64,000 nucleotides of DNA from a virus (IMGVR_UViG_3300025168_000034:101610-165609); one strand, 5' to 3'; shown: positions 1 through 54,601, counted from the stretch's first letter. The notes: generated by a model from the letters alone, not told the origin. Made by a program: numbers and translations.

Positions 1-591
1 TATTAGTGAATGGATTCTAGTGTGTTTGTTGTTGTTATTTGAATTGGTGTTTTCGTTTAAAGATGAATTCATAAAAGCACCTTGTGTAGATGGATTACTG
101 ACCAAATCCCAACATACGATTTCAAAGTCGTCTTGTACTTCTACCTTTCCCTCTCCTAACTCCTTAACAGATCCCATTCCTCTTGAGCTGATGCCTAATC
201 TGATTCCAGATTTCATTAACTCCTTTGCAATGTTTCCTGAGGGTGTAGATAATATCTCAATCTTTCCCATTAAGTCAGTCCCTTGCCACCACAAATCAAG
301 TACATTGTGAGACACGTTTGATAGGTTTACCACTTGAGAATCTGGATGATCTAATTCGCCTAACGCTCTACGCTCCTTTACAAAAGTGTTTTTGTAAGTT
401 TCACATTCTTTTTTCAAAATAGGTAAAGGATAGCTCCTTCCATTTTGGTTAAAGTTTTCATCATCGCCAGTACTGGCTCTCTGCATAATTCCTGACACGA
501 TTAGCTTTCCATTGTTTTTGTTCATGGATTCGTTGATCTGTGTAGGTGTTACTTGGATTGATCCTATATAATCTACTAATACTCTTTTCAT
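1..591 (-). CDS. gp21: Prohead core protease (T4 gp21-like), 3' end runs off window
   Basis: Not in the ORF track. Manual translation from ATG at 591: MKRVLVDYIGSIQVTPTQINESMN...NQNGRSYP...RALGELDHPDSQVVNLSNVSH...STPSGNIAKELMKSGIRLGISSRGMGSV...DFEIVCWDLVSNPSTQGAF. The GELDHP and GISSRGxGS motifs are gp21 hallmarks. ATGA overlap with the upstream ORF. Confidence 0.95.
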   Translation of the reverse strand, partial: MKRVLVDYIGSIQVTPTQINESMNKNNGKLIVSGIMQRASTGDDENFNQNGRSYPLPILKKECETYKNTFVKERRALGELDHPDSQVVNLSNVSHNVLDLWWQGTDLMGKIEILSTPSGNIAKELMKSGIRLGISSRGMGSVKELGEGKVEVQDDFEIVCWDLVSNPSTQGAFMNSSLNENTNSNNNNKHTRIHSLI

Positions 592-2219: not shown

Positions 2220-4061
2220 CTACTCATCTAACAGGTTTTCTTCGTTGAGAAGACCAGGTTTTTTCTTATCTTTACTGTATGTGCTTTGTAATGCAGCAGC
2301 TTTGTTAAGATTGTCTTTTAATCCTTTGTAATTGCCAAGGTTTTGTGCTTCATACATTACACGACCTGCAGATTTGTTTTGTTTGTGACCTGCTGGATCC
2401 CACCCTAATGGATGTGTGTGTTTGCCAAATGTGCCAGGTTCTTTAGGTCTTCCTGCTCCAGGCCATCCACCCTCAGGTACTTCTTTTTCATCATATCCTT
2501 TTGGCACTCCCTCATCTCCTTTATACAAGCTGGCTATGTCGTGTGGTGTACCAAATGACTGACCACTCTCTTTTGGATCATTACCTTCAGTCTTGATCTG
2601 TTCTAATCGGAAGAATTCTTTTGAATCAGCTGCAATACGATCTTGCTCTTCCATCCACTGTTCTGGTTGCATGTTGAATAAGTGTTCGTAACACCAAAAT
2701 CTACTGAATAGTTTCTTTTCAACTAGATCTCCTGCTAACGTAGATTTAGATGTCCACAACTCTAACTTTTCTCTTTCGTAATACGTAGACGGTGGTGTTA
2801 GTTTTAATGAAAAATCGACAATCTCTTCATCAGTAAATCCTTGAGAATATAAGTGTACAATTGCAATCTTAGTAAGCTCGCTTACAATAATTTTTTGTAC
2901 TCTTTCAATTGTTCTTGCAAATCTGAAATCTTGTGATGCTAATGAGGCTTTTCCAGTAGTATCTTCTAAATATCCTAAATATGCTTTTGGAATTTTTAAC
3001 GCACCTAACATTCTATTCTGCAAATACTCAATGTCAGGAATTGAATCCATTTGTAGTCCAGGAGTGGTTTCAATCATTGTTCCGCTTTCTGCACCACGAA
3101 CTGGTAAGTAGAAGTCTTCAAGAATATTTTGCATGTTGTACTTGAGGTTGTAATCTCCCGTACTCTCATCTATAAATGGAACCTTTTTCATTTTGTTAAT
3201 CATACCTTCCATAAAAGCGTCAACTTCGTTTGGTGGTATGTTACCAATATCTATTTTAAAAATTCGTTTGTCTGGAGCTCTCATGATACGATGAATTAAC
3301 ATTGCATCTTCCATTAGTGTGAGTTGTTTCCATACCTTTCTTGCTGGCTCTAATAAAGATCTACCGTATGGTAAAAAGTTAGTATCATTTAATAATCTAA
3401 AGTGAGCAATCTCATAATTATCATATTCTTCGGTTGAGTTACGATGTATTGTAGTTGTAGCAATCCCTGACATCATGTCTCTTTTAAAAGTGACTTTGTT
3501 TGGATTTTGTGGATCCATACCCTCTTCTCGTACCATCTCATAAGCTGAGATTGGTTCCACGTTTGTGATTCCATACTTCTCGGTGATGTTTAGGTGTAGG
3601 TAAAAATCACCATATTTCAACGTACTACGTACCCATGGCCATAAATTAAATTCAACATTAAGAATGTCGTAAAATAGATTGTGAAGTACTTTGTGAATCT
3701 TATCATTGTTTGTCATGATAGTAAGTGTATCTTCAAATTCATCTTTAGCGGTACACTCGTCTGAATAAATATCTAATGCTGAAGATATGATACTATCAGA
3801 GTCCATTGCTTCATAATCTTTGAATAACTCAATTCTAGTAGCTTGTAATATTTCACCTTGATTGTATGCGGTAGTAATACCAGTTCCATACATTCGATTG
3901 AATCGATCAATACGACTATTATTCTGTAAGTTTCCTACAGATTGAAGATTGTCGGTGTCAACCACTTTAAGTTGTTTTCCACCAACATTACGAATAATTA
4001 CATCAGTACTAAATAATTTTCGTAGTCTGCCAAATAAGTTAGGTTTTTTCTCTTCTGCCAT
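2220..4061 (-). CDS. gp20: Portal protein (T4 gp20-like)
   Basis: ALDIYSDE, YGRSLLEPAR, LMEDAMLIHRIMRAPDKRIFKIDIGNIP, EDFYLPVRG, ALKIPK and DFRFARTIERVQ are gp20-family motifs. Confidence 0.96.
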   Translation of the reverse strand: MAEEKKPNLFGRLRKLFSTDVIIRNVGGKQLKVVDTDNLQSVGNLQNNSRIDRFNRMYGTGITTAYNQGEILQATRIELFKDYEAMDSDSIISSALDIYSDECTAKDEFEDTLTIMTNNDKIHKVLHNLFYDILNVEFNLWPWVRSTLKYGDFYLHLNITEKYGITNVEPISAYEMVREEGMDPQNPNKVTFKRDMMSGIATTTIHRNSTEEYDNYEIAHFRLLNDTNFLPYGRSLLEPARKVWKQLTLMEDAMLIHRIMRAPDKRIFKIDIGNIPPNEVDAFMEGMINKMKKVPFIDESTGDYNLKYNMQNILEDFYLPVRGAESGTMIETTPGLQMDSIPDIEYLQNRMLGALKIPKAYLGYLEDTTGKASLASQDFRFARTIERVQKIIVSELTKIAIVHLYSQGFTDEEIVDFSLKLTPPSTYYEREKLELWTSKSTLAGDLVEKKLFSRFWCYEHLFNMQPEQWMEEQDRIAADSKEFFRLEQIKTEGNDPKESGQSFGTPHDIASLYKGDEGVPKGYDEKEVPEGGWPGAGRPKEPGTFGKHTHPLGWDPAGHKQNKSAGRVMYEAQNLGNYKGLKDNLNKAAALQSTYSKDKKKPGLLNEENLLDE

Positions 4062-4075
4062 TCTTGTTTATTTTA

Positions 4076-4083
4076 TATAAATA
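4076..4083 (-). promoter_or_regulatory. Late promoter motif TATTTATA (representative of 14 copies)
   Basis: TATTTAT(A/T) 3-25 nt upstream of starts; copies begin at 2194, 4076, 5655, 9094, 12667, 16797, 25303, 27239, 31943, 41753, 49942, 54581, 57400, 63205. Confidence 0.8.
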
Positions 4084-4085
4084 GG

Positions 4086-5648
4086 CTACAATAACCAATT
4101 TAAGTCTTCGTCTTTGCCTTTTACATCCATTTTCCATGAATCAGTTTTGTGAGATGTTCTATACACTGCGGTTGATTTTGCATGATCTAAAGCTCTCTTT
4201 GTTAGCTCGATTCCTGCTTGACGTAGCTTTAATGCTGTGTCTCTTACCCACAATGCCATACACCAACTCATTACCAAATCATCATTGTATCCTAATTGTG
4301 CTTCAGGTCTTGCGTTTCTCCATATGAAAACGCCAAGTTCATCAAGAAGCCTTCTACTCCTTATTATACAACTTTTTTCCCTCATATACAACTCCATCTT
4401 GGAAATAATTAATGGTCGTACTTTTGAAGACATTGTAAAGCCAGCTACCTGATCTTTGGTACGTTGTACATCTGTTGCTCGAGCTAGATATCTATCTGAA
4501 TCTAATCCTATATCTTTTGGTGTGTAATATAGGTTTTTATATGAACGATCAATTACTTGTTGTATAGTTGCCCATCCTATATTTGCATTTTCAATAACAA
4601 GCAGTGCATCATTATACTCTGTAGCAATAGACACCAGCATGTTGCCATAATCCTTTGTTGTTACTTGCCCTTTATATTCAGCTACTTGTGTTGCCTCTTC
4701 TAAATCAAACACGTGGAATGCTGAGTAATCTGTTCCATCTCCACGAGCAACATCAGCTACTACCACATAATCCTTTGTATAATTTGGGATCTCCCACACA
4801 TGTAAATTACTATCAAATCCTCGTTTTTCAATTGGATCTTGCATGTAGGTTTGTCTGTAGAAGTTTAACATGTCTGGATGTACAACAGTATTACCTGATG
4901 TACTGAAATCGCAATCACACTCTTGTGCAGCTAGCCTAGCTCCTAACTCATCATCTTGCCTATCTCTCCACTCCTGATCTCTTTCTGGATGTACTTGCCA
5001 TGGAAGTCTTTTGGTAAAAAATTGATTCTCTCCTTCTTCTGATTTCATCCATATCTTATGAAAGAAGTTACCGGTACCGTTTGGTGTACTTAATATAACG
5101 CCTCTACCTCCAGTTGCTAAGGTTTGTTGTAGGGATGCCCACAACTCTTCTGCATTATCAACGAATGCTGCCTCATCAATTATTACTAATGATAATGCTT
5201 CTGAACGTCCTGATGTTCCTGAGCTGGCAACAGCTTTGATTTGTGATCCGTTTGTTAATCGTAGTGACAGTTTATTTTTTTCTGTTGTCTTTAATCGCAG
5301 CCAACTTGGTAAGTTTTCAAACATTACACTAACCTTTGTTACAAGGTTTTTAGATGTGTTTTGGTCAATTGCAACAACAAGAATGTTTTTATCGCTATGA
5401 AATAACATTGTCCACAAAGAGTATCCTGCAGATAATGTTGATATTCCTAGCTGACGTGACTTGAGTATGATAACCCTGTCATTGTCTTGCATGTCATTGG
5501 TAAGCTCTTCTTGGTAGGGATACAACTTAAATGGTATCTTTCCTTTTGATGGATGCTGGATTAGACAGTATTTTTTCATAAAGTATACTGGATCCTTAGC
5601 ACATTTTACGTACTCAGTCCTTATTAGCTTTTTTAAATCTACACTCAT
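4086..5648 (-). CDS. terL: Terminase large subunit (T4 gp17-like)
   Basis: LYPYQ, Walker A KSRQLGIST, Walker B IIDEAAF, STPNG, nuclease ADVARG-DYSA and NDDLVM. Confidence 0.97.
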   Translation of the reverse strand: MSVDLKKLIRTEYVKCAKDPVYFMKKYCLIQHPSKGKIPFKLYPYQEELTNDMQDNDRVIILKSRQLGISTLSAGYSLWTMLFHSDKNILVVAIDQNTSKNLVTKVSVMFENLPSWLRLKTTEKNKLSLRLTNGSQIKAVASSGTSGRSEALSLVIIDEAAFVDNAEELWASLQQTLATGGRGVILSTPNGTGNFFHKIWMKSEEGENQFFTKRLPWQVHPERDQEWRDRQDDELGARLAAQECDCDFSTSGNTVVHPDMLNFYRQTYMQDPIEKRGFDSNLHVWEIPNYTKDYVVVADVARGDGTDYSAFHVFDLEEATQVAEYKGQVTTKDYGNMLVSIATEYNDALLVIENANIGWATIQQVIDRSYKNLYYTPKDIGLDSDRYLARATDVQRTKDQVAGFTMSSKVRPLIISKMELYMREKSCIIRSRRLLDELGVFIWRNARPEAQLGYNDDLVMSWCMALWVRDTALKLRQAGIELTKRALDHAKSTAVYRTSHKTDSWKMDVKGKDEDLNWLL

Positions 5649-6071
5649 CTATTTTATAAATAGTACTAGAATAGTTGTTAAAATTGCTGCTCCACAACCT
5701 GCTCCTAACCAACGCTGATTGCGTTTAAGTTTTTCATTTTGTCTTTGCAAATCTTCTAGTCCAGTAACATATATGTTGATTTGTTGAGATTGAGCATTAA
5801 CCTGCTTTCTGCATAATATTGATTTTTCTGTGCTATGTTGTATTAGACTATCCTGCTTTGCTATTTTTTCATTAGCTAGCTCTAAAAGCAAGTAAGTGTA
5901 GTCAAACATTTCAACACACTGATCATACTTAATTAGATCTTCTGCTATTTGTTGTGCTGTACTGTATGGTAAAACTACGACAGAATCTTCGTTATTTTGG
6001 GTATCGGTCTGCGAAAAACTGGTCAAGGTCAGTGACAGTAAAACGCTCAATATCATTAAGCTCTTCTTCAT
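5649..6071 (-). CDS. Secreted coiled-coil protein with C-terminal TM helix; putative spanin-like partner
   Basis: Likely start MKKSLMILSVLLSLTLTSFS|Q (signal peptide, Gln+1), coiled coil, C-terminal hydrophobic WLGAGCGAAILTTILVLFIK; overlaps the next ORF. Confidence 0.55.
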   Translation of the reverse strand: MKKSLMILSVLLSLTLTSFSQTDTQNNEDSVVVLPYSTAQQIAEDLIKYDQCVEMFDYTYLLLELANEKIAKQDSLIQHSTEKSILCRKQVNAQSQQINIYVTGLEDLQRQNEKLKRNQRWLGAGCGAAILTTILVLFIK

Positions 6072-8199: not shown

Positions 8200-9090
8200 T
8201 TATTTTTTAATTCCAGCTCTATGTTGGAATGTTTCTTTTAAGTGTGATTCTACATCTTTACTGTAGGGTGGAAGAACATCTGCTGTTCCTTTTTCTAAAT
8301 ATTTTACAACCGCATTCACCTTTTCTGCATCAATAACCGGCATATCCTTTCTTTCTGGAGCACCTTGCATTTTTTGTTTTACAAGTTTTCCGGCATTGTC
8401 TGCCATAATAGCCATTCCTTTTTCCGAATCTCCATCAGCTCCTGGAACCTTTCCTAATGCTACTTTTACTTCTTCCGATGACAGATGAGGCCATTGTTTT
8501 AAACCTTGTTCTGTACCATCTTTCAAAGCATACTTAATTGCATTTTGTACTTTATCTCCAGTAAAGTTTGCTACGTCACCTTTTCCTTTGTTTCCTACAT
8601 CAATACCCAACTTACCCTTCGTCATTGCGTTGAGTGCTGTTATAAGTTGTTGGCCTGGTAAGTCTAACTTTGTTATAGCTACTTTAGCTCCTGGATAAAG
8701 AAGAGTTGCTGCTGCCCATCTATGGTGTCCATCCATAATAAAATCGTCATTAGAAACTATAGCTTCCATATTTGCTAAGTCAGGAGCGCCGTTTTTTGCC
8801 TTTGCTTCTTTAAAGTCATTAAACGCATATCCTAAAGCAAATGCTACTGCTTTTGAAACAATTACTTCCTTTTGTGCAGGCTTGAGCTGGCTTACTGGGA
8901 CTGCATCTGGACCACCATTAATAATATCATCCTCTTTGTCGCCATCCTCTAATCCACCTCCAACTGCATCTCCTGCTAGATCTTTATCCATCTTACTTAG
9001 CCCAACTGCTTTTGGATTGTTGAATACATCCGCTTCAGATAAAATATCTTTACGCATGTTATTGATAGTATTGCCTAACGACTTCTTCAT
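8200..9090 (-). CDS. ParB/Srx-like domain protein, putative internal head protein
   Basis: VPVSQLKPAQ...IVSNDDFIMDGHHRWAA ParB-N motif. Start placed at 9090, just downstream of the late motif; leader ends ILSE. Confidence 0.7.
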   Translation of the reverse strand: MKKSLGNTINNMRKDILSEADVFNNPKAVGLSKMDKDLAGDAVGGGLEDGDKEDDIINGGPDAVPVSQLKPAQKEVIVSKAVAFALGYAFNDFKEAKAKNGAPDLANMEAIVSNDDFIMDGHHRWAAATLLYPGAKVAITKLDLPGQQLITALNAMTKGKLGIDVGNKGKGDVANFTGDKVQNAIKYALKDGTEQGLKQWPHLSSEEVKVALGKVPGADGDSEKGMAIMADNAGKLVKQKMQGAPERKDMPVIDAEKVNAVVKYLEKGTADVLPPYSKDVESHLKETFQHRAGIKK

Positions 9091-9101
9091 ACTTATAAAT
9101 A

Positions 9102-9575
9102 TTACCATTTTCTGCAAGACCAATATCTTGCTTTAGTTTTTGGTCCTGGATTATCACAATTATGTCTTGCTCTGAACGATTTACGTCTTGCGGGATTACT
9201 CTTTTTTATCTTCATTCCTTTTTGACCAAAATTTACTTTTTTTGCTTTTATAGTACCGTCTGCATTCTTTTTTCCAGAATTTACATGTACTTTAAATTTC
9301 TTAACATCGCCACGCATTATTTTGTTAAGCTTAACAGTACGTCCATTATACTTAGCTTCTTGAAATAATACTGGTTCTGAGTGTTCTATTATTTCAAGTC
9401 TCAAACCTTCATTTCGGTAAACAACGGATTCTTTGGCATTAATCTTCTTGCCAGCTTTGACTGCAGCCTTATACGCTTTAGAGCCTTTAGGAGATGATTT
9501 TCCTCCTCTAGCTTTTTTAGCTCTAATGTTAGCCCACAATCCTTTATTCTCCTTTAGGTTGTTCTTTTTGTTCAT
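9102..9575 (-). CDS. Basic hypothetical protein (DUF6321-like C-terminus)
   Basis: KKVNFGQKGM...NPARRKSFRARHNC...ARYWSCRKW module recalled from large phages; modules split by LKE/AKE/FQE. Confidence 0.6.
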   Translation of the reverse strand: MNKKNNLKENKGLWANIRAKKARGGKSSPKGSKAYKAAVKAGKKINAKESVVYRNEGLRLEIIEHSEPVLFQEAKYNGRTVKLNKIMRGDVKKFKVHVNSGKKNADGTIKAKKVNFGQKGMKIKKSNPARRKSFRARHNCDNPGPKTKARYWSCRKW

Positions 9576-10077
9576 TAATTTTATCCTTTAACTCACCGAC
9601 AACACCTTCTAACTTTTCGATTTCTTTATCTATCATGTCGCTAATTAGTGCGTTGTCTGGGTTAGCCCATTTTTCAATTTTTCCTTTTTCTGAAACATGT
9701 GTGTTCTCAGCTGAGCTTTCTTTAAACTCTTGCAAGCCGGCTTTAACATCTCTCAAATACGATTTAGCATTTTCATACTTTTTCATCGCATTAAATTCTT
9801 TTTTTAACCCTTTTGCTCTCAACTTATGTTGTTCATCAACAACACAATTAAAACACTTTCGATCAGTTTTCCAAAATTTGGCATCTAATCGATTGTTCAT
9901 CTTCTTACCACAACATGGACATGCTAACGGGACTAAAAAGTCTTTTCTAGCTTTATCCATTCTTGTAACTGTTTTTTTTATGCCGTTTTTGATTGTCCAC
10001 GTTTTACCGCTTTCCTCCCAAACATCACCCTCATGACGCTCGACATATTTGTTTCTCGTAACCTTAATTTTTTTCAT
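9544..10077 (-). CDS. Zn-finger-containing hypothetical protein
   Basis: CPCC...CFNC plus an EGDVWEESGKTW motif. Confidence 0.6.
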   Translation of the reverse strand: MKKIKVTRNKYVERHEGDVWEESGKTWTIKNGIKKTVTRMDKARKDFLVPLACPCCGKKMNNRLDAKFWKTDRKCFNCVVDEQHKLRAKGLKKEFNAMKKYENAKSYLRDVKAGLQEFKESSAENTHVSEKGKIEKWANPDNALISDMIDKEIEKLEGVVGELKDKINEQKEQPKGE

Positions 10078-10376
10078 TATCGTGCTTTTACATTAAATTT
10101 TTCTAACACCGCCTCTACTCTCTTGTCAAACTTTCTCAAAGCTCTACGTAGTTCTAATTTCATAGCTTCTGCAAGTTTCTTTTCTTCGTCCTTATTAGCT
10201 ACTGTTCTGTAAAACTCTTTACCACCGACTGACGACATTGTTACGTCAAATGAGAATTCTGGTTTTCCATCCTCTCCTACTTCAGTGAACTGTGGGTCGT
10301 AGTGTAACGTCATATTTGTGTTTGGTGACGTTGCGATTGCTTCTTTCTTTTCGCTTAAAAGTTTTTTTAATTCCAT
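10077..10376 (-). CDS. Hypothetical protein with MELKKLLSE leader
   Basis: 99-aa ORF, translationally coupled to both neighbours. Confidence 0.55.
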   Translation of the reverse strand: MELKKLLSEKKEAIATSPNTNMTLHYDPQFTEVGEDGKPEFSFDVTMSSVGGKEFYRTVANKDEEKKLAEAMKLELRRALRKFDKRVEAVLEKFNVKAR

Positions 10377-12649
10377 TATCTTCCGAATTTTATGTATCCT
10401 ATAATTTGATTGACTGGTGCAAAGGCTCCAGTTAATTTGTATAATTTTCCTTTGTGTTTAAACACTATACCTTCTGATGGTACTATTGCATCGAATCCTC
10501 CAATCTTATCCAAGCGTTTAAGTTGTGCTTTGAGAAATCTCAAAGGTGCATCATCGTCTTGAAGTTTATCATTGTTTGCTTTTGCCTTTAATTGTTCGAT
10601 AGAGCTTGCCAACTCTCTTTTCATTTTTGAAATAGAATCGTTAGGGTTGATTGCTACTAATCCTTCTAAACTTTTCAATACAAAAACTCCTAATTTTAGA
10701 AAGATGTCTTCTACCGGTTCGACAGCTATCTTTTTTTGATCTCTAACACCACTTCCCTTATCCATAGTAGTAAACCACTCTAAGAATTCTGGATTGTCTA
10801 TTGATTTTTTTAACTCTCGTAGATTTGGTTGTTTTTGACCAAAAGCCCATCTGTTAATGATATTCTGCAATACGTCGTCAGGCACTGCGTATTTGTAGGT
10901 TTTAGCATTATTTTTTATAAAAGCAGACCAAAAATTTTGAAAGTATAATCCTAACTTACTTTCCTTAGTTAGCTGGTACTTGCCTCTAACATTACCAAGA
11001 TCTTTAAGTAGTTCTTGCTTTTGTTTTTCGTAATCTTTAGTTTGTTTAAGATCCACTAAGTCAGTGGCTCTTATTTCATACGTATCTTGTTTAGAAGCTT
11101 CTACTCGATCTAAGGCTTGTTGTATTTTAGTAGGTGCTTCACTATCACTTCCTATGACGTTTCCATTCTCATCATACTCCTGCACGTTGTGCATTCTTAG
11201 TTGAGTTACTCCGTAAGCAGCTACATTTTCACTGGAAGGATGTAAGAGTTCCATGTTTATAAACTTGGTACCGTTTCCAAAAAACTCTTCTTTTTCGGTT
11301 GGATTAAGTTTGGATATCGCATCCGTCATATCTTGCATTGCATCAAGAAATGCATTACGAACATTATCTGGTAAGTGCTGCATTGACTTTTCCATATCAT
11401 TCTTAGTCATTGCTTTTTCAGCTGCATTCTTCAGTTGTCCTTTGTTTCTTGCTGAAAGCACTTTGCCGTCTTTATATGTTACCATAAGATTCTGTCCATC
11501 TAACTTCTCTTGAGCATACTCCACTTTTCCGGTTAAAGCTGCATCAATCATATCTTCGATATCATCAAAAGTCATATCCATATCTTCATACGGATGAGCC
11601 ATGTGTCCAGCTGCTCCTCCCTCTTTTAAAAGATTGCGACCCTCACTGACAGCCATAAATTCTGCTGGAGTCTCTATATCTAGAAATGCTGAGGGTGTTA
11701 GTGTTTTTTTTAGTATTGGCAGACGAGCTAAGAGTAGGTAGATTACTCCTCCAGGTAACACAGATGCTGCTGTAAATCCAGCTAATTTCAAAACATCTTT
11801 CATTTGATCGCCAATCTCTTTTCTTTCGTGATTTGGTAACTTTTGACCTTTCTTTACCGCGGAATACAGCTTTATAAATGCGTCTTTAGTTTCTTGCTTT
11901 TCAACCTTTAGTTTGTCAATAAAAGCTCCAAACTTACTTTTTAATTGTTCAAATTGTTTACGTAAGACAGCAGGAATTTCTATCTCATCCAAAGTAGATT
12001 GGGAGAGGTCCTCCTTGATCTTTTTTTTTGATAATAGATCGAATATGTCTCTAAGCTGTTGATCAGATTTTATGCTTGGATAATTTGTTTTAAAATTTTC
12101 AAAATCCTGAGCTGCTAAGTCAGATCGTAGCTGCGACGCTGAGGTTGGCTTACCGTTTTGATCATCAGTTCTATTTTTGTAGAATAATGGTTTTGATTTA
12201 TCAAGTGGCAACTCAACAACACTCACACCATCTTTATAATATTTTCCATCATTTTGGTGTTGATCTACAAAGCCACGAATACGATCGTAATCACTACCTT
12301 TGCTGCTTGACCCTAAAGCATACGATTCTCCTGATTGAGCTTTCTCTTCAATATATTTGTATGCAGTGAGTAGTGGACTTGGGTATCTTGATCTCTCTAC
12401 TCTAATCTTTTTGGTTCCAGCTAGTAGTTTTTCCCATATTTTTTCGCTATCTTCAAGAGTAATACCATCACGTTCTTTTGGTCCTATTAGAATAACAACT
12501 TCTTTTACTTGTGGCATATCTTCATAACCCTTTGCAAGCATTAAGTGTCCTTCGTGTGGAGGTTTAAATCCACCAGGCAACATTACTGTAATTCCCTCTT
12601 CAACTTCGTTGAGAATACTATCAACTAGAAATTTTGATAAATCGTTCAT
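10376..12649 (-). CDS. Multidomain protein: HIGH-family nucleotidyltransferase + LETM1-like region + RNA-ligase-like (DUF6267-like) domain
   Basis: PGGFKPPHEGH and TSASQLR (HIGH/SxTxxR); QMKDVLK...VLPGG...LTPSAF (LETM1-like); GHMAHP, EKLDG, PSEGIVF, YKLTG (ligase motifs I, IV, V). Confidence 0.75.
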   Translation of the reverse strand: MNDLSKFLVDSILNEVEEGITVMLPGGFKPPHEGHLMLAKGYEDMPQVKEVVILIGPKERDGITLEDSEKIWEKLLAGTKKIRVERSRYPSPLLTAYKYIEEKAQSGESYALGSSSKGSDYDRIRGFVDQHQNDGKYYKDGVSVVELPLDKSKPLFYKNRTDDQNGKPTSASQLRSDLAAQDFENFKTNYPSIKSDQQLRDIFDLLSKKKIKEDLSQSTLDEIEIPAVLRKQFEQLKSKFGAFIDKLKVEKQETKDAFIKLYSAVKKGQKLPNHERKEIGDQMKDVLKLAGFTAASVLPGGVIYLLLARLPILKKTLTPSAFLDIETPAEFMAVSEGRNLLKEGGAAGHMAHPYEDMDMTFDDIEDMIDAALTGKVEYAQEKLDGQNLMVTYKDGKVLSARNKGQLKNAAEKAMTKNDMEKSMQHLPDNVRNAFLDAMQDMTDAISKLNPTEKEEFFGNGTKFINMELLHPSSENVAAYGVTQLRMHNVQEYDENGNVIGSDSEAPTKIQQALDRVEASKQDTYEIRATDLVDLKQTKDYEKQKQELLKDLGNVRGKYQLTKESKLGLYFQNFWSAFIKNNAKTYKYAVPDDVLQNIINRWAFGQKQPNLRELKKSIDNPEFLEWFTTMDKGSGVRDQKKIAVEPVEDIFLKLGVFVLKSLEGLVAINPNDSISKMKRELASSIEQLKAKANNDKLQDDDAPLRFLKAQLKRLDKIGGFDAIVPSEGIVFKHKGKLYKLTGAFAPVNQIIGYIKFGR

Positions 12650-13189
12650 TTATAAAGAGTCTTTTGTATAAATAGGCTGCGTTTTCACTTTAGCCTTTAA
12701 TTGTGCAACTTCTTTTGTGAGCTGATCAACTCTATCTAGCAGTTTTGTAATCACACTAGATAATGACTTGTGTTTTAAATTTTCATTCTTATATAAGTAA
12801 AGGTCTTCTAGGACTGCACTTCCGTTTACAATTAACTTACACTGATCATACTCACCCTCTATTGTAGATTGTCCGACATAGAATTTTTCCATAACTCGTC
12901 TGGATATTATATCTCTGTTTTCAAGATCTTGTGTGATTGGATTGTAAGCGAGGTAGTGTGAAATAAAGTATATGTTGTCGGATTGAAGTTTAGCATCTGT
13001 GTTAGGTGTGCCTATTCTTACTAGATAGGGATTAGTGTTATGCTTTGCTTTTATGTCAGACACACTCTCTCCATTCCAACTTGTATAAATATTCTTTAAG
13101 CGAATCTTACCCAAAGTTTCTCCAGTTGCTAATCCTTCAATTGGTTTGAAAGGTGTTGTTGTGTTTCTTACTTTATTATTATTTATCAT
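12650..13189 (-). CDS. Hypothetical virion-associated protein with C-terminal coiled coil
   Basis: 179-aa ORF ending in the heptad KLLDRVDQLTKEVAQLKAKV. Confidence 0.55.
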   Translation of the reverse strand: MINNNKVRNTTTPFKPIEGLATGETLGKIRLKNIYTSWNGESVSDIKAKHNTNPYLVRIGTPNTDAKLQSDNIYFISHYLAYNPITQDLENRDIISRRVMEKFYVGQSTIEGEYDQCKLIVNGSAVLEDLYLYKNENLKHKSLSSVITKLLDRVDQLTKEVAQLKAKVKTQPIYTKDSL

Positions 13190-14652
13190 GATCTGTCTGC
13201 TGGAAATGCCACTTCATTTGTAATATTACCTCCAATCGTTGTCGGTGCTAGTAAGGATGGATCAGTTGCTACACCTACTTGGCAAAATTCAATATCATCA
13301 ATAATACATCCAAAGTAAGAATCAGAATCTAAACTACCACTAGCTTCAAACACTATTTGAGCATCTAATCCATACTGCACAACGTTGATATTGAAAGATT
13401 CTAATTGGAATCCTGTCGCAGGGTTTATAAAAGACATTGCTGGATTAACGTTTTTTATTCTCACAATATTATTATCAGGTGGATAAAATCCCGCTGTTCC
13501 TGCTACTCGCTCATTTATAAGACCAACATTTGGTTGAATATTAAAAATGTAAATTAACAATTCACTACCTGCGCCTGTGTCAGGATACATATCTATATTA
13601 AGGTTTCTTTTTAGATTGAACTTAACATTAAAAATTCCTCCATTTGTATTAAAAATACCTCCAGTACTTTGAATTGGATTTGGAAGTGGATACATGTCGC
13701 TACAAAACCAATTCACTCCTGAGGACGGATCAGCAGTAATCGAATCATCTCTCGTTGCTGTTACAGTGGGGAAAAATAATCGTCGTCGTTTTAATTCGTT
13801 TGACAGGTTTATTTGAACAGCAGACGTTTGTAGATGGGATTGTGAAGCATATCCAGCTAAGGATGCACTCACATCTTGTCTTGAAATTCCAATACCTCCT
13901 GCAAGATCGTAGAACCTTCCATCAAACGATCCAGTTGAAGCATCTCCAAATGTTATCATGCCTGGATTAGTTCCGTTTGCTAATGGAACACCTCCTCCTA
14001 GAGTTACACCTCCTACTTCAGTGTATTTAGGAATACCTGCACTAAACGCTGATGGTTGAGCGTAAACGTCCGAGGGTGTTGGTTTGTTAATAGTAGCTGG
14101 ATATTCTACGGTTCCACCTCCAACACTACTAGCAAATGTTTTATATATCATATTTGAAGCTGTCATTAAAGGCTCTACAGCTTTCCAGCTTGAAGTTATT
14201 GGATATTTTACAAAGCCATAATCACCTCGTAAGTCACCTCTAAAAAAACTAGCACTGTTATAGGTAAAAGTAAAAATCATAGTATTGTTAAAACTACCAC
14301 CACCTCTGGCTGTTGAGTCAATACTAAATCCAGATTGAGTTGGTACAAGACAATTCCATAAATAATCTGCTGCAGGAGATCCCCACGGCAATGCTCCTGC
14401 ACTACCAGATATAATTGCAGGTTCTCGTGTAAGAGCTGTGAGAGTGTCAAAGTCGAGCGAGGTGGCAATGGCGTTGTTGTAATAAGCATTTGATATACTT
14501 CGATTTTGTCCATCCCAATCTTCGTTTACATTTGCCATGTTATTAGGCCATCCTCCAACTATTTTGTTGCTGCCAGTAGGACACCACTTATAATAAAAAT
14601 CAAATGCATGACTATATGTCACTCTTTTATTTTTTAAATCTGTAAAACTCAT
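13186..14652 (-). CDS. Putative virion structural protein
   Basis: 488 aa, G/S/T/N-rich beta composition, in a late operon. Confidence 0.6.
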   Translation of the reverse strand: MSFTDLKNKRVTYSHAFDFYYKWCPTGSNKIVGGWPNNMANVNEDWDGQNRSISNAYYNNAIATSLDFDTLTALTREPAIISGSAGALPWGSPAADYLWNCLVPTQSGFSIDSTARGGGSFNNTMIFTFTYNSASFFRGDLRGDYGFVKYPITSSWKAVEPLMTASNMIYKTFASSVGGGTVEYPATINKPTPSDVYAQPSAFSAGIPKYTEVGGVTLGGGVPLANGTNPGMITFGDASTGSFDGRFYDLAGGIGISRQDVSASLAGYASQSHLQTSAVQINLSNELKRRRLFFPTVTATRDDSITADPSSGVNWFCSDMYPLPNPIQSTGGIFNTNGGIFNVKFNLKRNLNIDMYPDTGAGSELLIYIFNIQPNVGLINERVAGTAGFYPPDNNIVRIKNVNPAMSFINPATGFQLESFNINVVQYGLDAQIVFEASGSLDSDSYFGCIIDDIEFCQVGVATDPSLLAPTTIGGNITNEVAFPADRS

Positions 14653-16810: not shown

Positions 16811-19800
16811 TTAACAGTTTATATACGACAATTCGTTTTTTCTGTCTATTGTTATAATATTGTCAACCATATCTCTTACTACATCAATGTGTGAGATAAC
16901 TAAACTAAACCTGAAAGTGTCCTTCATATTAGTAAATAGTGTGTGCATTGAGTTTAGATTGGTGCTATCTAAAACACCTAATCCCTCATCAATAGCAATA
17001 AAATCAGGCTTCGGTAGGTTTGTGATCTTAATTAATGCTATACGCAAAGCTATAGAAGATAAGAATTTTTCCATCCCAGAACTCAACTCTAACGGCCACT
17101 TTTCGTCTTCATAACATATGAATCCATTTATATTCTTGCCATCTGTTTCTAATGCAATCTCAAAATCAATTATCTGATTTAGTATAGTGTTGGCGTGTTG
17201 CTCTATGAATGGAACAGCCTTTGATATAAGCTGAAATGGTATGCCATCCTTATACATAGCTTTGCAGTAGATATCATATATTGCTTGATCTTCTACTAAC
17301 TGAGTCATGTGTTGGATTGTTTTTGTACTCTCTTCAATTGTCTCCTCAGCTACACACTTTTTACCATAGAAATCACGTACAGACTTGTTAGTTTTCTGTA
17401 CGACTATAGTTTGTTTATTTTTTTCTATGTTCAACTTACTTAACTTGTCATTCGTTTTATTGTTACGTTCTATGACTTTTACAGCCTTGTTGTATTGTTT
17501 GATTTGCGATTCGGTTTCTGCAATATTGACTTCGCATGCTGCTATGTCTTTATTAAGACGTTCATACTCAGACTCAGCATCACCTTTATCAGCTCGTGCG
17601 CTATTATAGTCAGTTGCAATGTCTCTTATGTAGTCCGCTTGTGCTTGTATTTCTTTATTGTTTTCGATAAAATCAACGATTCGCATACGCTTTTGTAAAA
17701 AGTCAGCTACTGTTGTTTTATCTTCCTCAAGCTCTAGTTTCGTCTTCATTGCATCTTGTACAAACACATTTGACACGCAGTGCTTGCAGTTCGGATCATA
17801 CTCATGTTTATTAAGTTTTTCAAGTTTTGACAACTTGTTTTTGATTGTAATCTTTAACTCTCCCAACTCCGTATCTAGCTCAATCTTTTCTAGTACCTTT
17901 GCTTTGTGGGTAGTGTATAGATCCTGATCAAAGCTGTTCAATGCACGCTCCTTATCATACTCTAATCCAGTTAATCTCTTCTTAGACTCCTCCCACTTCT
18001 TTGTCGATACTTTTTTGTCTTCTTGCAAAGATGTCAATTCTTGTTCGTATTCTTCAAGTGATTCTGATACATCAGAAATATCTATACTATCTTCTTCACA
18101 CGGCTCCAATTGCTCAGATAACACTAACATTTTATCGATCTGATCATCAAGTATAGCTTTCTCTTTTTTATGCACCGCTATAGCATCGTCATGCTTTATA
18201 GTGTATTCATCTAAAGACTTTTCTGCATCACCTAGTTTAGTTTCAAAGTCTTGCTTTTGGTACTCTTCTAGTATAATTGATGCATTTCTATTGCTTCTAT
18301 TGGCAAGGTCATGGAGTTGATCAAATATAGTAACATCTAAGAAGTTGGCTAGCAGATCCTTTCTTTCGCTCTGAGTCTTGTCAATAAAGTTGGAGTTGTT
18401 CTGTTGCAGTGATAATGCAGTTAGGATAAAGTCATCAAACGTACCTACATAGGATTGTATGATCTTACCAGTGTCACGTCTCATCTCACCATTCAGTGAC
18501 ACCTTGTTTCCATCCTCGTTGATGTACCAAAAGTCAATCTCCACACGCAATCTACCCTTTAACGCACCACTACGGTACTTGAAGGCTTTTTTGTGAATGA
18601 AATAGTCCAATCCTTCGAGCTCAAAGTTGAAGGTACACTCGAATGATTCTTTCTTGCGATTAAGTACTTGGTCAGCTTTACTAGCTCTGAACGAGTGATC
18701 GAAGAGGCAGAAGCATAGAGCGTCTAATATGGCAGACTTGCCGGCATGGTTAGGTGCAAATATACCACAAGTACCCATCTTAGTGCTGAAGTCAATGGTG
18801 TTGTCCTCTCCATAGCTGAACATGTTGCTAAACTCGAACTTCTTAGGTTTCCAGATTACACTGCGAGCTACCTCAGGCTGCTGCAACTCACCATTAAGCT
18901 TCTTATTGATTTCTAAAACTTTGGCAATCGAGTCTTCATCTACACCTTCATCGGTTAGGTATTCTGTTAGTAGTTGGTTCTGGTATTGTATGTTACGTAC
19001 GTCTCCTTGGTCTAGTTGTGTACCTAGATGTTCATCACCGTTCCGGCCACCTTTGTCGAGTTTGATAACTATTGCATCTCGGTTTTTGTACTTCTTACGT
19101 ATCGTTGCAAGAACACGCTTCATCTGAGCCGCATCTGTTTTCATTGTCTTGATGCGTAGTCTTGTGTGCTTTGTGATAGGTAGATTGTCTGGCAATACAC
19201 CATCAGTAATCTCTAACGTATAATACCCGTATTCGTTAGGTAAATCGTGAAACTCACATTTGATATCTTTTCGGTCTCGTACATCAATGATACCATATCC
19301 ATGTCCTTCATACGCTTCTCCAAAGTTTTGTTGTACAGTTGAGCCTGGATAGAACATCAACGGATTTGCTGTAGATAATGTTTGACGTTTATGTATATCT
19401 CCTAGTGGTGCTACATCAAAACCAGCAAACGTATCCCAGCTCAATCCATGTTCAATATTCATACCACTATCCACTTTACTATTGGCAACTGTGCCATGAT
19501 ACAAAGCCATTAGTAAATCGTATTGGTCTGGATTATCTATCTTATCGTATGTGATATATTTGTCAGTTTCACCTAATAAAGAAAATACACTGAGTCCTAT
19601 TTTCTGATCTGGTGTGTATATATCATACAATCCTGAGTCTCTTAGGTACCAAAGGTTTCGATGTTTCAGTCCTTGAACGATTGGAGTTAATGCATCTAAT
19701 CTGTGTGGATTATTTAGGTTTGCATCGTGGTTTCCTGTGATCACAAATGTGGGTCTTCTATCTGCCAATCTTTTGAATAGGTAGGATACCATGCTGATAA

Positions 19801-20002
19801 GCTCTGGACTCATCTCTGTTTTAGCATGCACAATATCACCTCCAACTGTTACGATGGTGTTAGGAGAACACTTGTCTAATTCCTCAAACATTCTGTCAAA
19901 CACCTGCTTAAACTCTTTGTGCCGTTTCCAGTTCCTAATGTGTACATCAGCGATGTGAAAGATGTAATCAACATTGTTGGGTAGTGTAATTCCTTGGCTC
20001 AT
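16811..20002 (-). CDS. Fused Mre11/SbcD nuclease-Rad50/SbcC ATPase (gp47-gp46-like)
   Basis: Phosphoesterase motifs ADVH, GGDIVH, GNHD, GDIH; Walker A APNHAGKS; coiled coil with CKHC zinc hook; signature SSGME; Walker B IAIDEG; ISH. Confidence 0.93.
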   Translation of the reverse strand: MSQGITLPNNVDYIFHIADVHIRNWKRHKEFKQVFDRMFEELDKCSPNTIVTVGGDIVHAKTEMSPELISMVSYLFKRLADRRPTFVITGNHDANLNNPHRLDALTPIVQGLKHRNLWYLRDSGLYDIYTPDQKIGLSVFSLLGETDKYITYDKIDNPDQYDLLMALYHGTVANSKVDSGMNIEHGLSWDTFAGFDVAPLGDIHKRQTLSTANPLMFYPGSTVQQNFGEAYEGHGYGIIDVRDRKDIKCEFHDLPNEYGYYTLEITDGVLPDNLPITKHTRLRIKTMKTDAAQMKRVLATIRKKYKNRDAIVIKLDKGGRNGDEHLGTQLDQGDVRNIQYQNQLLTEYLTDEGVDEDSIAKVLEINKKLNGELQQPEVARSVIWKPKKFEFSNMFSYGEDNTIDFSTKMGTCGIFAPNHAGKSAILDALCFCLFDHSFRASKADQVLNRKKESFECTFNFELEGLDYFIHKKAFKYRSGALKGRLRVEIDFWYINEDGNKVSLNGEMRRDTGKIIQSYVGTFDDFILTALSLQQNNSNFIDKTQSERKDLLANFLDVTIFDQLHDLANRSNRNASIILEEYQKQDFETKLGDAEKSLDEYTIKHDDAIAVHKKEKAILDDQIDKMLVLSEQLEPCEEDSIDISDVSESLEEYEQELTSLQEDKKVSTKKWEESKKRLTGLEYDKERALNSFDQDLYTTHKAKVLEKIELDTELGELKITIKNKLSKLEKLNKHEYDPNCKHCVSNVFVQDAMKTKLELEEDKTTVADFLQKRMRIVDFIENNKEIQAQADYIRDIATDYNSARADKGDAESEYERLNKDIAACEVNIAETESQIKQYNKAVKVIERNNKTNDKLSKLNIEKNKQTIVVQKTNKSVRDFYGKKCVAEETIEESTKTIQHMTQLVEDQAIYDIYCKAMYKDGIPFQLISKAVPFIEQHANTILNQIIDFEIALETDGKNINGFICYEDEKWPLELSSGMEKFLSSIALRIALIKITNLPKPDFIAIDEGLGVLDSTNLNSMHTLFTNMKDTFRFSLVISHIDVVRDMVDNIITIDRKNELSYINC

Positions 20003-25298: not shown

Positions 25299-25311
25299 TA
25301 CATATAAATAT

Positions 25312-31928: not shown

Positions 31929-31965
31929 TTAGTTGTCTTTTATATAAATAGGTGTGTTAAATAAT

Positions 31966-41734: not shown

Positions 41735-41769
41735 AATAATAGTGTTGTTTTATATAAATAGGCAAGTTT

Positions 41770-54564: not shown

Positions 54565-54601
54565 TTATGTACGTGTTTATTATAAATAGCTTGGAATATA
54601 A

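What the first reader, a model, noticed from the sequence alone, without database searches (positions are those of the whole stretch)
10376..12649. Polyprotein: HIGH nucleotidyltransferase / LETM1-like / RNA-ligase-like domains separated by protease sites
Seen: three motif-defined domains whose junctions carry ILNE, KIKE and AVSE-GRNLLKE. Inference: it is cleaved into an NMNAT/cytidylyltransferase-like enzyme, a LETM1-like membrane or ribosome-associated module and a KxDG ligase-like enzyme. NAD regeneration and RNA repair would counter NAD-depleting and tRNA-cleaving defences if delivered preformed. The substrates cannot be determined from sequence.
Basis: partly seen in the sequence, partly recalled or inferred. 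Interest (0 to 1): 0.72.

Follow-up and report, generated by a model that had tools for sequence, protein, structure and literature searches.

The report
Tagged phage adenylyltransferase–ligase-like fusion protein
A large T4-like phage encodes, next to its DNA-packaging genes, one 757-residue protein joining an NAD-synthase-like enzyme, a short hydrophobic hairpin and a new kind of RNA-ligase-shaped enzyme; tags and cut-site motifs suggest, but do not prove, that it is loaded into the capsid, cut up and injected as a nucleic-acid repair kit.

Summary

- Residues 20-210 fold as an HxGH nucleotidyltransferase closest to archaeal NMNAT/NadM.
- Residues 344-757 fold with high confidence (pLDDT 94.9) as a covalent nucleotidyltransferase. 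Its best structural matches are all RNA ligases (Z 8-9.4). It has intact motifs I, III, IV and V, no OB domain, and a roughly 190-residue helical insert.
- The C-domain family is large (2,558 clusters at 50% identity), has no Pfam model, and I found no paper describing it.
- The middle segment has only sub-threshold LETM1_RBD similarity.

Cleavage is not shown, but circumstantial support is good. The genome has a T4 gp21-type protease and a row of proteins sharing a 10-residue tag that ends L-x-E. L/I-x-E sites are strongly enriched at the domain borders across the family. Free-standing relatives start exactly at those borders. In 69 of 80 related loci the gene lies next to terminase and portal genes.

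Fusion partners in relatives (kinase, HAD phosphatase, 2H esterase) point to end-healing and sealing rather than NAD salvage, and the genome has no Nampt.

The scan has already met this family on other DNA many times.

The parts
10376..12649 (-). Whole ORF, 757 aa (P0001), stop codon included
   Evidence: 100% self-match in the genome record
12667..12674 (-). TATTTATA on the gene strand, 18-25 nt upstream of the ATG; a promoter-like motif shared with the portal and terminase genes
   Evidence: 14 of 15 copies lie on one strand, and the listed copies sit just upstream of minus-strand ORF starts. Promoter function is an inference.
12605..12649 (-). N-terminal leader, residues 1-15 (MNDLSKFLVDSILNE), ending in an L-x-E site; candidate capsid-targeting tag
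   Evidence: Conserved between relatives whose enzyme domains barely align. Predicted helix with pLDDT about 60. Some relatives lack it.
12011..12604 (-). HxGH (HIGH) nucleotidyltransferase domain, residues 16-213; HxGH motif at 12545-12574, ISxS..R motif at 12125-12145
   Evidence: pLDDT about 90 for residues 20-210. Foldseek: archaeal NMNAT E 1e-4, TM 0.65, then NadD and PPAT. Family profile against PDB: NMNAT MJ0541 6e-8, NadM 1.3e-7.
11984..12022 (-). Border 1: KIKE (residues 210-213) and LDE (220-222), candidate L/I-x-E protease sites after the first domain
   Evidence: family-level enrichment at this position, 50 of 62 against 35% expected
11639..12010 (-). Middle module, residues 214-337: helices plus a hydrophobic hairpin (residues 291-313, window 11711-11779) and a TPSAF motif
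   Evidence: Conserved only in the closest relatives and absent in P0006. Low-confidence helical model. Kyte-Doolittle mean 1.8 over 19 residues. Sub-threshold LETM1_RBD hit in orthologue P0152. Atlas lead at score 0.78.
11621..11653 (-). Border 2: AVSE (residues 333-336) and LLKE (340-343), directly before GGAAGH
   Evidence: this stretch is poorly ordered in the model (mean pLDDT 47 for model residues 1-10)
10379..11620 (-). RNA-ligase-fold covalent nucleotidyltransferase domain, residues 344-757. GGAAGHMAHP at 344-353; motif I EKLDGQN with K382 (window 11489-11509); ARNKG (11438-11452); motif III E467 (11243-11263); motif IV E726-G727 (10460-10477); motif V K738 (10427-10444)
   Evidence: AF2 pLDDT 94.9, pTM 0.92. 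VIA Z 9.4 NgrRnl, 8.3 Trl1-LIG, 8.2 REL1, 8.0 T4 Rnl1, 7.9 T4 Rnl2. Invariant columns.
10484..11056 (-). Helical insert of about 190 residues (roughly residues 532-722) between the strands carrying motifs IIIa and IV
   Evidence: Secondary structure of the model. Structural alignments to ligases span model residues 1-420 but align only about 170-210 of them.
9544..10077 (-). Context: 177-aa zinc-ribbon/coiled-coil ORF that lies between the ligase-like gene and TerL in relatives; small-terminase candidate by position only
   Evidence: Present in 65 of 80 related loci. Only a weak PHROG hit to a family of unknown function.
4086..5648 (-). Context: large terminase subunit
   Evidence: phrog_2, E 2.5e-48; found in 69 of 80 related loci within 3 kb downstream of the ligase-like gene
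2220..4061 (-). Context: portal protein
   Evidence: phrog_213, E 4.8e-62
1..591 (-). Context: T4 gp21-type prohead protease (Peptidase_S77); the ORF runs over the window edge
   Evidence: PF03420, E 5.9e-27, over the cut-off, at window about 64-468

Best explanation
The gene encodes a precursor that carries two enzymes and is expressed with the head and packaging genes.

Shown:
- An NMNAT-like HxGH adenylyltransferase fold (residues 16-213).
- A new-family covalent nucleotidyltransferase with an RNA-ligase fold and all catalytic motifs intact (residues 344-757).
- A lineage-specific hydrophobic hairpin module between them.
- A gp21-type protease in the genome.
- L/I-x-E sites at all three borders.
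- Conserved position beside the terminase and portal genes.

Inferred:
- The 15-residue leader acts like a T4 capsid-targeting sequence.
- The precursor enters the prohead.
- The prohead protease removes the leader and probably cuts at E213/E222 and E336/E343. That would free an adenylyltransferase, a small hairpin peptide and a ligase that starts at GGAAGH.
- The products leave the capsid with the DNA.
- Together with a separately encoded, similarly tagged HAD-like phosphatase, they heal and seal broken nucleic-acid ends at the start of infection. The substrate is RNA by analogy with the fold neighbours, but this is undetermined. The ligase would act through lysyl-AMP on K382.
- The role of the HxGH domain is unknown. 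Its constant pairing with the ligase-like domain suggests that it serves the same pathway, for example by making or recycling the adenylyl donor.

My estimates: domain identities about 0.9, ligase-type catalysis about 0.7, capsid targeting about 0.55, internal cleavage about 0.45, RNA as substrate about 0.5.
For: Folds and motifs.

Family size, and the NTase + ligase-like pair as the core architecture.

Repair-type partner domains in relatives: Zeta_toxin/AAA_33 kinases, 2_5_RNA_ligase2 and PolyA_pol, and HAD.

HAD link: this phage's own tagged HAD-like ORF is 41% identical (E 8e-39) to the insert that P0007 carries between its two enzyme domains. The insert starts right after an L-x-E site, just as the free protein does after its tag.

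Capsid loading and cleavage:
- A Peptidase_S77 gene is in this genome and in all 4 complete phage genomes that hold a homologue.
- At least 11 ORFs of this phage start M(I)KLKDILxE or a close variant.
- Border-site enrichment.
- 20 free-standing ligase-like representatives carry 10-35-residue leaders that run up to the GGAxGH motif; 17 of them have Glu at P1 (also 72).
- The T4 rules (gp21 cuts after L/I-X-E; a 10-residue CTS is sufficient): PMC9026906, PMC3012670.

Late, head-module context: the TATTTATA motif is shared with portal and TerL, and the order ligase-like gene > p177 > TerL > portal holds in 69 of 80 related loci.
Against: - No virion proteomics or cleavage data exist for any member.
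- Glu at the ligase border is replaced by C or M in 28 of 118 fused representatives. Of the 29 fused forms without Glu there, 11 have no alternative site within 20 residues, while the preceding LL stays conserved. That stretch is therefore at least partly a structural element of the domain.
- The leader of this protein differs from the MIKLKDILxE tag of the other candidate cargo proteins in this genome.
- This genome has no polynucleotide kinase, Tpt1 or other ligase, so a complete heal-and-seal set is not evident.
- The RNA-ligase assignment rests on fold (Z 8-9.4, a range the tool warns is only middling) plus motifs. A sequence profile finds no solved ligase, and Pfam RNA_ligase hits in relatives are below threshold.
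- Conserved synteny may simply reflect gene-order inertia in T4-like phages.
Confidence: 0.45

Rival explanations
1. It is an uncleaved cytoplasmic multi-domain repair enzyme. The protein stays in one piece, is not packaged, and works late in infection as a tethered two-enzyme machine. The L-x-E motifs are helix caps or linker features, and the conserved LL-x-E-GG stretch is part of the ligase domain.
For: Fusion of the two enzymes is the commonest architecture: 29 of 40 long relatives carry CTP_transf_like together with the C-domain, which is unexpected if the parts are meant to separate. Glu at the ligase border is replaced by C or M in about a quarter of fused forms, while LL stays conserved. 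Some relatives have no leader at all.
Against: The leader is more conserved than the enzyme domains between distant relatives. Free-standing ligase-like and HAD-like relatives begin at exactly the fusion borders, behind tag-like leaders. A gp21-type protease is present in 5 of 5 complete or near-complete genomes. The conserved pre-domain stretch is disordered in the model.
Confidence: 0.25
2. It is a packaging-linked DNA nick-sealing ligase. The C-domain is this phage's DNA ligase and seals nicks in concatemeric DNA before or during packaging, or seals the injected genome. That would explain its fixed place beside the terminase genes.
For: No DNA_ligase_A_M, NAD-dependent ligase, Rnl1 or Rnl2 gene was detected in the 98%-complete genome, so this is the only ligase-superfamily gene found. 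The gene sits directly upstream of p177/TerL/portal in 69 of 80 loci. T4 encapsidation is known to need DNA ligase (Zachary and Black 1981; my own recollection, not checked here).
Against: There is no OB domain or motif VI, which DNA ligases normally need. The best structural matches are RNA ligases (Z 8-9.4), while DNA ligases score Z 5-7.5. Some partner domains in relatives are RNA-specific, namely 2_5_RNA_ligase2 and the PolyA_pol/CCA-adding head. From my own knowledge, many marine T4-like phages lack a ligase and use the host LigA.
Confidence: 0.15
3. NAD+ reconstitution is the main function. The HxGH domain is a true NMNAT that rebuilds NAD+ to defeat NAD-depleting defences (Thoeris, SIR2, DSR).
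For: The family profile hits only NMNAT/NadM at the top and the fold is closest to archaeal NMNAT. Phage NMNAT-containing pathways NARP2 and NARP3 are established counter-defences (bioRxiv 10.1101/2024.02.11.579819; PMC13464706).
Against: No Nampt/NAPRTase gene is in the genome, so NARP2 is incomplete. No NadR-like kinase or PnuC partner was seen. The query's own motif is diverged (GGFKPPHEGH) and falls below the Pfam threshold. The domain is tied to a ligase-like domain across more than a thousand clusters, which NAD salvage does not explain. PPAT and NadD folds score almost as well.
Confidence: 0.1
4. It has a morphogenetic role like T4 gp63 (Rnl1), which besides RNA ligation promotes tail-fibre attachment. 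The protein would be an assembly factor of the head or neck module.
For: Conserved position inside the structural and packaging gene block. Precedent of T4 gp63 (my own recollection).
Against: All catalytic residues of both enzyme domains are conserved across the family, which argues for enzymatic function. There is no detectable sequence similarity to gp63.
Confidence: 0.03

Closest known systems
ATP-dependent RNA ligases without an OB domain: Naegleria NgrRnl/Deinococcus DraRnl (Rnl5), fungal Trl1 ligase domain and T4 Rnl1, T4 Rnl2 and trypanosome REL1, archaeal Rnl3
   Same: The adenylyltransferase fold matches: Z 9.4 to 6.8 over 170-210 aligned residues. Motif I reads EKxDGxN, the style I recall for Rnl2/Rnl3/Rnl5. 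An Arg sits about 19 residues downstream, followed by a motif III Glu, a motif IV EG and a motif V Lys. There is no OB domain or motif VI. The associated kinase, phosphatase and 2H domains in relatives resemble Trl1 and T4 Pnkp-Rnl1.
   Different: No significant sequence match to any of them. Pfam RNA_ligase hits in relatives stay below threshold. The family-specific helical domain of about 190 residues is inserted between motifs IIIa and IV rather than appended after motif V. A conserved N-terminal GGAxGHxxHP element is not reported in the descriptions of Rnl1-Rnl5 that I know. The domain is constantly partnered with an HxGH enzyme. No activity has been tested.
Archaeal-type NMN adenylyltransferase (M. 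jannaschii MJ0541, M. thermoautotrophicum NMNAT) and bacterial NadM
   Same: Rossmann-like HxGH fold (TM 0.65). The long relatives carry GRFQPFHxGH and ISGTxxR motifs and their profile hits NMNATs at E 6e-8.
   Different: The query's motif is diverged (GGFKPPHEGH, TSASQLR) and it scores only 12.5 bits against Pfam CTP_transf_like. NMN-binding residues were not examined. PPAT and NadD folds score nearly as well. There is no Nudix or Nampt partner.
T4 internal proteins IPI-III and Alt: capsid-targeting-sequence cargo processed by gp21 and injected
   Same: A short N-terminal leader ends in L/I-x-E. A gp21-type S77 protease gene lies about 10 kb away. Several other proteins in the genome share a 10-residue tag. 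The gene carries the same upstream motif as the head genes and lies in the head gene block (rules from PMC9026906 and PMC3012670).
   Different: In the accounts read here (PMC9026906), T4 cargo proteins lose only the N-terminal tag, and only core proteins are cut into several fragments. Here two enzymes and a hairpin would be released from one chain. Neither packaging nor cleavage has been observed.
T4 Pnkp + Rnl1 tRNA repair, and fungal/plant Trl1 (ligase-kinase-CPD)
   Same: The logic of end-healing modules combined with a ligase. Relatives fuse P-loop kinases, a HAD (DxDxT) phosphatase-like module or a 2H esterase to the same ligase-like domain.
   Different: This phage has no detectable kinase or Tpt1. 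An HxGH adenylyltransferase has no counterpart in those systems.
LETM1 (Pfam PF07766 LETM1_RBD)
   Same: Orthologue P0152 residues 267-336 align to profile positions 1-64 at E 7e-4. The language-model search returns small clusters named Letm1-RBD at score 0.78. From my recollection of LETM1, both share the pattern L(T/S)xxE(R/K) ... hydrophobic P-rich hairpin ... PS(A/T)F.
   Different: The score is below the gathering cut-off. Only a quarter of the profile is covered and the query itself gives no hit. Nothing here indicates ribosome binding or ion transport.

Membership tests
Covalent nucleotidyltransferase superfamily (ligases / capping enzymes) | Motif I KxDG with the nucleotidyl-accepting lysine | tested here: met
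   EKLDGQN at residues 381-387. K, D and G are at least 90% conserved in 93 sequences.
Covalent nucleotidyltransferase superfamily (ligases / capping enzymes) | Motifs III (Glu), IV (EG) and V (Lys) in order on the beta strands of the nucleotide pocket | tested here: met
   E467, E726-G727 and K738 are invariant columns.
Covalent nucleotidyltransferase superfamily (ligases / capping enzymes) | Adenylyltransferase fold | tested here: met
   The 13 top VIA matches are all ligases, Z 9.4 to 6.8. Foldseek top hits are all RNA ligases, probability up to 0.99 but E only 1.7e-3.
Covalent nucleotidyltransferase superfamily (ligases / capping enzymes) | Formation of a covalent enzyme-NMP adduct and strand joining | not testable with these tools
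   Needs biochemistry.
Named RNA ligase families (Rnl1 PF09511, Rnl2 PF09414, Rnl3, Rnl5) | Significant sequence match to the family model or to a solved member | tested here: not met
   The query has no Pfam ligase hit. PF09414 hits in 7 of 28 relatives have a best E of 0.036 and stay below the 27-bit cut-off. The profile against PDB sequences finds no ligase.
DNA ligases (ATP- or NAD-dependent) | OB-fold domain with motif VI after the nucleotidyltransferase domain | tested here: not met
   The chain ends one helix after motif V. DNA ligases score lower, Z 5-7.5.
HxGH (HIGH) nucleotidyltransferases, Pfam PF01467 CTP_transf_like | HxGH motif and ISxxxxR motif | tested here: met
   PPHEGH at residues 30-35 and TSASQLR at 169-175. 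P25, G27, H35, S170 and R175 are invariant in 28 sequences.
HxGH (HIGH) nucleotidyltransferases, Pfam PF01467 CTP_transf_like | Pfam gathering threshold | tested here: inconclusive
   The query scores 12.5 bits against a 21-bit cut-off. 29 of 40 long relatives match, with E as low as 1.7e-10.
HxGH (HIGH) nucleotidyltransferases, Pfam PF01467 CTP_transf_like | Rossmann-like fold of the class | tested here: met
   Foldseek probability 1.0 and TM 0.60-0.66 to NMNAT, NadD and PPAT.
NMN adenylyltransferase (functional class) | Closest sequence relatives are NMNATs; NMN-binding residues; activity | tested here: inconclusive
   The family profile hits NMNAT/NadM first, at 6e-8 to 5e-7, but mostly over the first 60 residues. 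Substrate residues and activity were not tested.
LETM1_RBD (PF07766) | Match over the Pfam gathering score | tested here: not met
   The query gives no hit even at E up to 10. Orthologue P0152 scores 19.6 bits against a 25.3-bit cut-off, over profile positions 1-64 of 229.
T4-type capsid-targeted, gp21-processed cargo | gp21-type (S77) prohead protease in the genome | tested here: met
   PF03420, E 5.9e-27, over the cut-off.
T4-type capsid-targeted, gp21-processed cargo | Short N-terminal targeting leader ending in L/I-x-E | tested here: inconclusive
   The leader MNDLSKFLVDSILNE is present and conserved. It ends like the MIKLKDILxE tag shared by at least 11 other ORFs of the genome but is not the same tag.
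T4-type capsid-targeted, gp21-processed cargo | Presence of the processed protein in virions and its ejection | not testable with these tools
   No cultured relative with a virion proteome was found.
NARP2 NAD+ reconstitution (Nampt + NMNAT) | Nampt partner gene | tested here: not met
   No PF04095 match in the 98%-complete genome.
Heal-and-seal RNA repair (T4 Pnkp-Rnl1 / Trl1 type) | 5' kinase plus a 3' or 2',3' end-healing enzyme plus a ligase | tested here: inconclusive
   The genome has no AAA_33 kinase. It does have a tagged HAD-like DxDxT protein that is homologous to the insert fused between the two enzymes in P0007. Kinase and 2H fusions occur in other relatives.

The most novel reading that the evidence does not exclude
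A capsid-loaded enzyme polyprotein. The prohead protease of T4-like phages would mature not only structural and small internal proteins but also cut a tagged precursor into separate working enzymes: an NMNAT-like adenylyltransferase and the founding member of a new RNA-ligase family that starts at a conserved GGAxGH N-terminus. These would be injected with the DNA as a pre-made nucleic-acid end-repair kit. The adenylyltransferase may supply or recycle the ligase's adenylyl donor.
Probability: 0.3. Interest if true: 0.8.

Novelty: new variant of a known kind. Interest (0 to 1): 0.6.

Why it matters
The C-terminal domain belongs to a very large virus-borne family: 2,558 clusters at 50% identity, with no Pfam model and, as far as my searches reach, no publication. 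It has the fold and catalytic motifs of RNA ligases but a different build, and it is almost always paired with an NMNAT-like enzyme.

If it is active, it adds a new ligase family with a new domain topology and could be a useful reagent.

If the capsid-loading and cleavage reading holds, it would show that T4-like phages deliver pre-made repair enzymes cut from a polyprotein. That would extend the internal-protein/Alt paradigm and bear on how phages survive RNA- or DNA-cutting defences in the first minutes of infection.

The conserved position beside the terminase genes also raises the possibility of a link between ligation and DNA packaging.

Tried and rejected
- Direct sequence annotation of the query led nowhere. 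Pfam, NCBIfam and PHROGs gave only sub-threshold hits.
- Neither the query alone nor the C-domain profile found a solved ligase by sequence.
- A search for short free-standing relatives of the middle module returned only fragments of the same protein.
- I tried to falsify the cleavage idea by looking for a homologue-bearing complete genome without an S77 protease. All four had one, so the test was uninformative rather than confirming.
- A wider protease co-occurrence test was dropped because most related IMG/VR contigs are only 5-30 kb.
- I considered and rejected a canonical NARP2 role (no Nampt) and a Trl1/Tpt1-type pathway (no Tpt1).
- I considered membership of Rnl1 or Rnl2. No such match exists in the genome or in the query.
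- Literature searches for the fusion, for Mel-JY01, and for RNA ligase together with capsid targeting found nothing relevant.
Full report
**Observation.** Window 10376-12649 holds one uninterrupted 757-aa ORF on the minus strand. It lies in a 165,609-bp viral record that CheckV rates 98% complete.

**C-terminal domain.**
- Residues 338-757 match 2,558 representative clusters (677 below 1e-30). In these the domain stands alone at about 410-435 aa or ends proteins of up to 1,985 aa.
- No source names it and none of the listed relatives has a precomputed Pfam domain.
- With a 93-sequence alignment, AlphaFold2 gives pLDDT 94.9 and pTM 0.92.
- Foldseek's best hits are all RNA ligases: Trl1 ligase domain, Rnl3, T4 Rnl1 and Rnl2. 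The E-values are only marginal, 1.7e-3 at best.
- The Foldseek-independent aligner places thirteen ligases on top: NgrRnl Z 9.4, Trl1-LIG 8.3, REL1 8.2, T4 Rnl1 8.0 and T4 Rnl2 7.9. DNA ligases and capping enzymes score 5-7.5. The tool warns that Z near 8 is middling.
- The assignment therefore also rests on the invariant columns: K382/D384/G385 in EKLDGQN, R401, E467, E726-G727 and K738.
- Unusual features are a helical insert of about 190 residues between motifs IIIa and IV, the absence of an OB domain, and a strictly conserved GGAxGHxxHP element at the domain start.
- A sequence profile finds no solved ligase, and Pfam RNA_ligase hits in relatives stay below threshold.
- I read it as a new family within the RNA-ligase-like branch of covalent nucleotidyltransferases. 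It is not a member of Rnl1-5.

**N-terminal domain.**
- Residues 20-210 are modelled at pLDDT about 90 and match archaeal NMNAT, NadD and PPAT structures (probability 1.0, TM about 0.65).
- The query itself is weak in Pfam (12.5 bits), but 29 of 40 long relatives hit CTP_transf_like.
- The profile of those relatives, with GRFQPFHxGH and ISGTxxR motifs, finds NMNAT MJ0541 (6e-8), NadM (1.3e-7) and M. thermoautotrophicum NMNAT (5e-7). NadD is weaker and PPAT does not appear at E up to 0.01.
- The pair HxGH domain plus ligase-like domain is the core architecture of the family. What lies between them varies.

**Middle module.**
- Residues 214-337 are conserved only in the nearest relatives and are missing in P0006. 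They are modelled as low-confidence helices.
- The module contains a hydrophobic hairpin at residues 291-313.
- The query gives no LETM1 hit even at E up to 10.
- A near-identical orthologue, P0152, hits LETM1_RBD profile positions 1-64 of 229 at E 7e-4 and 19.6 bits. This is below the cut-off and falls exactly in this module.
- A language-model search independently returned clusters named Letm1-RBD at a score that is only a lead.
Its function is unknown.

**Is it a polyprotein?** Evidence in favour:
- The genome encodes a T4 gp21-type S77 protease at window about 64-468. So do all four complete phage genomes that carry a homologue.
- T4 gp21 cuts after L/I-X-E, and a 10-residue N-terminal capsid-targeting sequence is enough for head loading (PMC9026906, PMC3012670).
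- At least eleven ORFs of this phage begin M(I)KLKDILxE or a close variant. Nine of them lie in one row at G000 8.6-14.4 kb.
- My protein's leader ends alike (DSILNE). The leader is conserved between relatives whose enzyme domains barely align.
- Across representatives no more than 50% identical, hydrophobic-x-E sites are enriched at the end of the first domain (50 of 62 against 35% expected) and in leaders (41 of 43 against about 12.7 expected). They precede GGAxGH in 77%.
- Twenty free-standing ligase-like representatives have 10-35-residue leaders that run up to the GGAxGH motif. Seventeen of them have Glu directly before it.
- This phage's tagged HAD-like ORF is 41% identical (E 8e-39) to the insert between the two enzymes in P0007, and that insert begins just after an L-x-E site.
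- The same mature ends would therefore arise from tagged single proteins and from fusions.

Evidence against:
- Glu at the ligase border is replaced by C or M in 28 of 118 fused forms, while the preceding LL stays conserved.
- 11 of the 29 fused forms without Glu there have no nearby alternative site.
- Cleavage at that border therefore cannot be universal, and the stretch is partly structural.
- No proteomic data exist.

I put capsid targeting at about 0.55 and internal cleavage at about 0.45.

**Context.**
- TATTTATA on the gene strand lies 18 nt before the ATG. It also lies directly before the portal and TerL genes.
- In 80 related IMG/VR loci with only 3-kb flanks, TerL is present in 69 and a 177-aa zinc-ribbon/coiled-coil ORF in 65.
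- The order is ligase-like gene > p177 > TerL > portal on one strand, with a median gap of 1,267 nt.
- The gene is thus a fixed member of the head and packaging block in this clade.

**Function.**
- Relatives insert or add P-loop kinases (Zeta_toxin/AAA_33), a 2H phosphoesterase, a CCA-adding/poly(A) polymerase head, a HAD-like phosphatase, an ADP-ribosyltransferase and inteins. This points to healing and sealing of broken nucleic-acid ends.
- This genome lacks AAA_33 kinases, Rnl1, Rnl2, Tpt1, Nampt and both classes of DNA ligase. Three things follow.
- A full canonical RNA-repair set is absent.
- NARP2-type NAD salvage is incomplete.
- This is the only ligase-superfamily gene detected, which keeps a DNA nick-sealing or packaging-linked role alive as a rival.
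- The substrate cannot be decided from sequence.

**Novelty.** The scan has flagged this family on other DNA many times, with similar readings. I found no paper on it.
- the terminase synteny;
- the HAD fusion link;
- the border-site statistics, including the counter-evidence;
- the S77 co-occurrence;
- the absence of any other ligase in the genome;
- a located sub-threshold LETM1_RBD hit.

I class it as a new variant of a known kind: an RNA-ligase-fold enzyme with a new topology, a constant NMNAT-like partner and a probable capsid-cargo context.

Noticed in passing
L093:610-6439 (G000:C1 about 8610-14440; outside the window, about 90 kb upstream), plus window 56515-57387: Nine consecutive minus-strand ORFs, and a few elsewhere, begin with a near-identical 10-residue leader M(I)KLKDILxE. 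They include a DxDxT HAD-like protein and a 360-aa protein with an HELEH (HExxH) motif. This looks like a set of capsid-targeted cargo proteins.
   Followed up: partly
window 4076-4083, 5655-5662, 12667-12674, 25303-25310, 31943-31950, 41753-41760, 54581-54588 and others: TATAAATA occurs 15 times, 14 of them on the + strand. The listed copies lie just upstream of minus-strand ORF starts, so the gene strand reads TATTTATA just upstream of many genes, including portal and TerL. It is a likely late-promoter element. The total count alone is not significant (15 against 8.5 expected).
   Followed up: partly
window 9544-10077 (-): A 177-aa ORF with a CxxC...CxxC zinc ribbon and a coiled coil is conserved immediately upstream of TerL in 65 of 80 related loci. 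It is a candidate small terminase by position only.
   Followed up: partly
whole genome G000: No ATP- or NAD-dependent DNA ligase, Rnl1 or Rnl2 was detected in a 98%-complete 166-kb phage that does encode a primase and an SbcCD-like nuclease (window 16811-20922). An earlier scan note (e1-5726100) also reports polymerases in this genome.
   Followed up: partly
window 8200-9108 (-): A 302-aa ORF contains a DGHHRWAA motif reminiscent of ParB/sulfiredoxin-type nucleases and hits phrog_2859, a family of unknown function. It also carries an early L-x-E (ILSE).
   Followed up: no
L088 (Prevotella phage Lak-B2, W04:C1:499673-499993): The S77 protease match in Lak-B2 is read through 3 TAG codons, which suggests that TAG is not read as a stop in this phage.
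   Followed up: no
P0090 (1,985 aa), P0125 (1,753 aa): Very long relatives add other modules upstream of the same ligase-like domain. P0090 has a Tox-ART-HYD1 ADP-ribosyltransferase-like segment. P0125 has a weak RegB-like endoribonuclease segment, and it also keeps the HxGH domain. These resemble multi-effector proteins.
   Followed up: no
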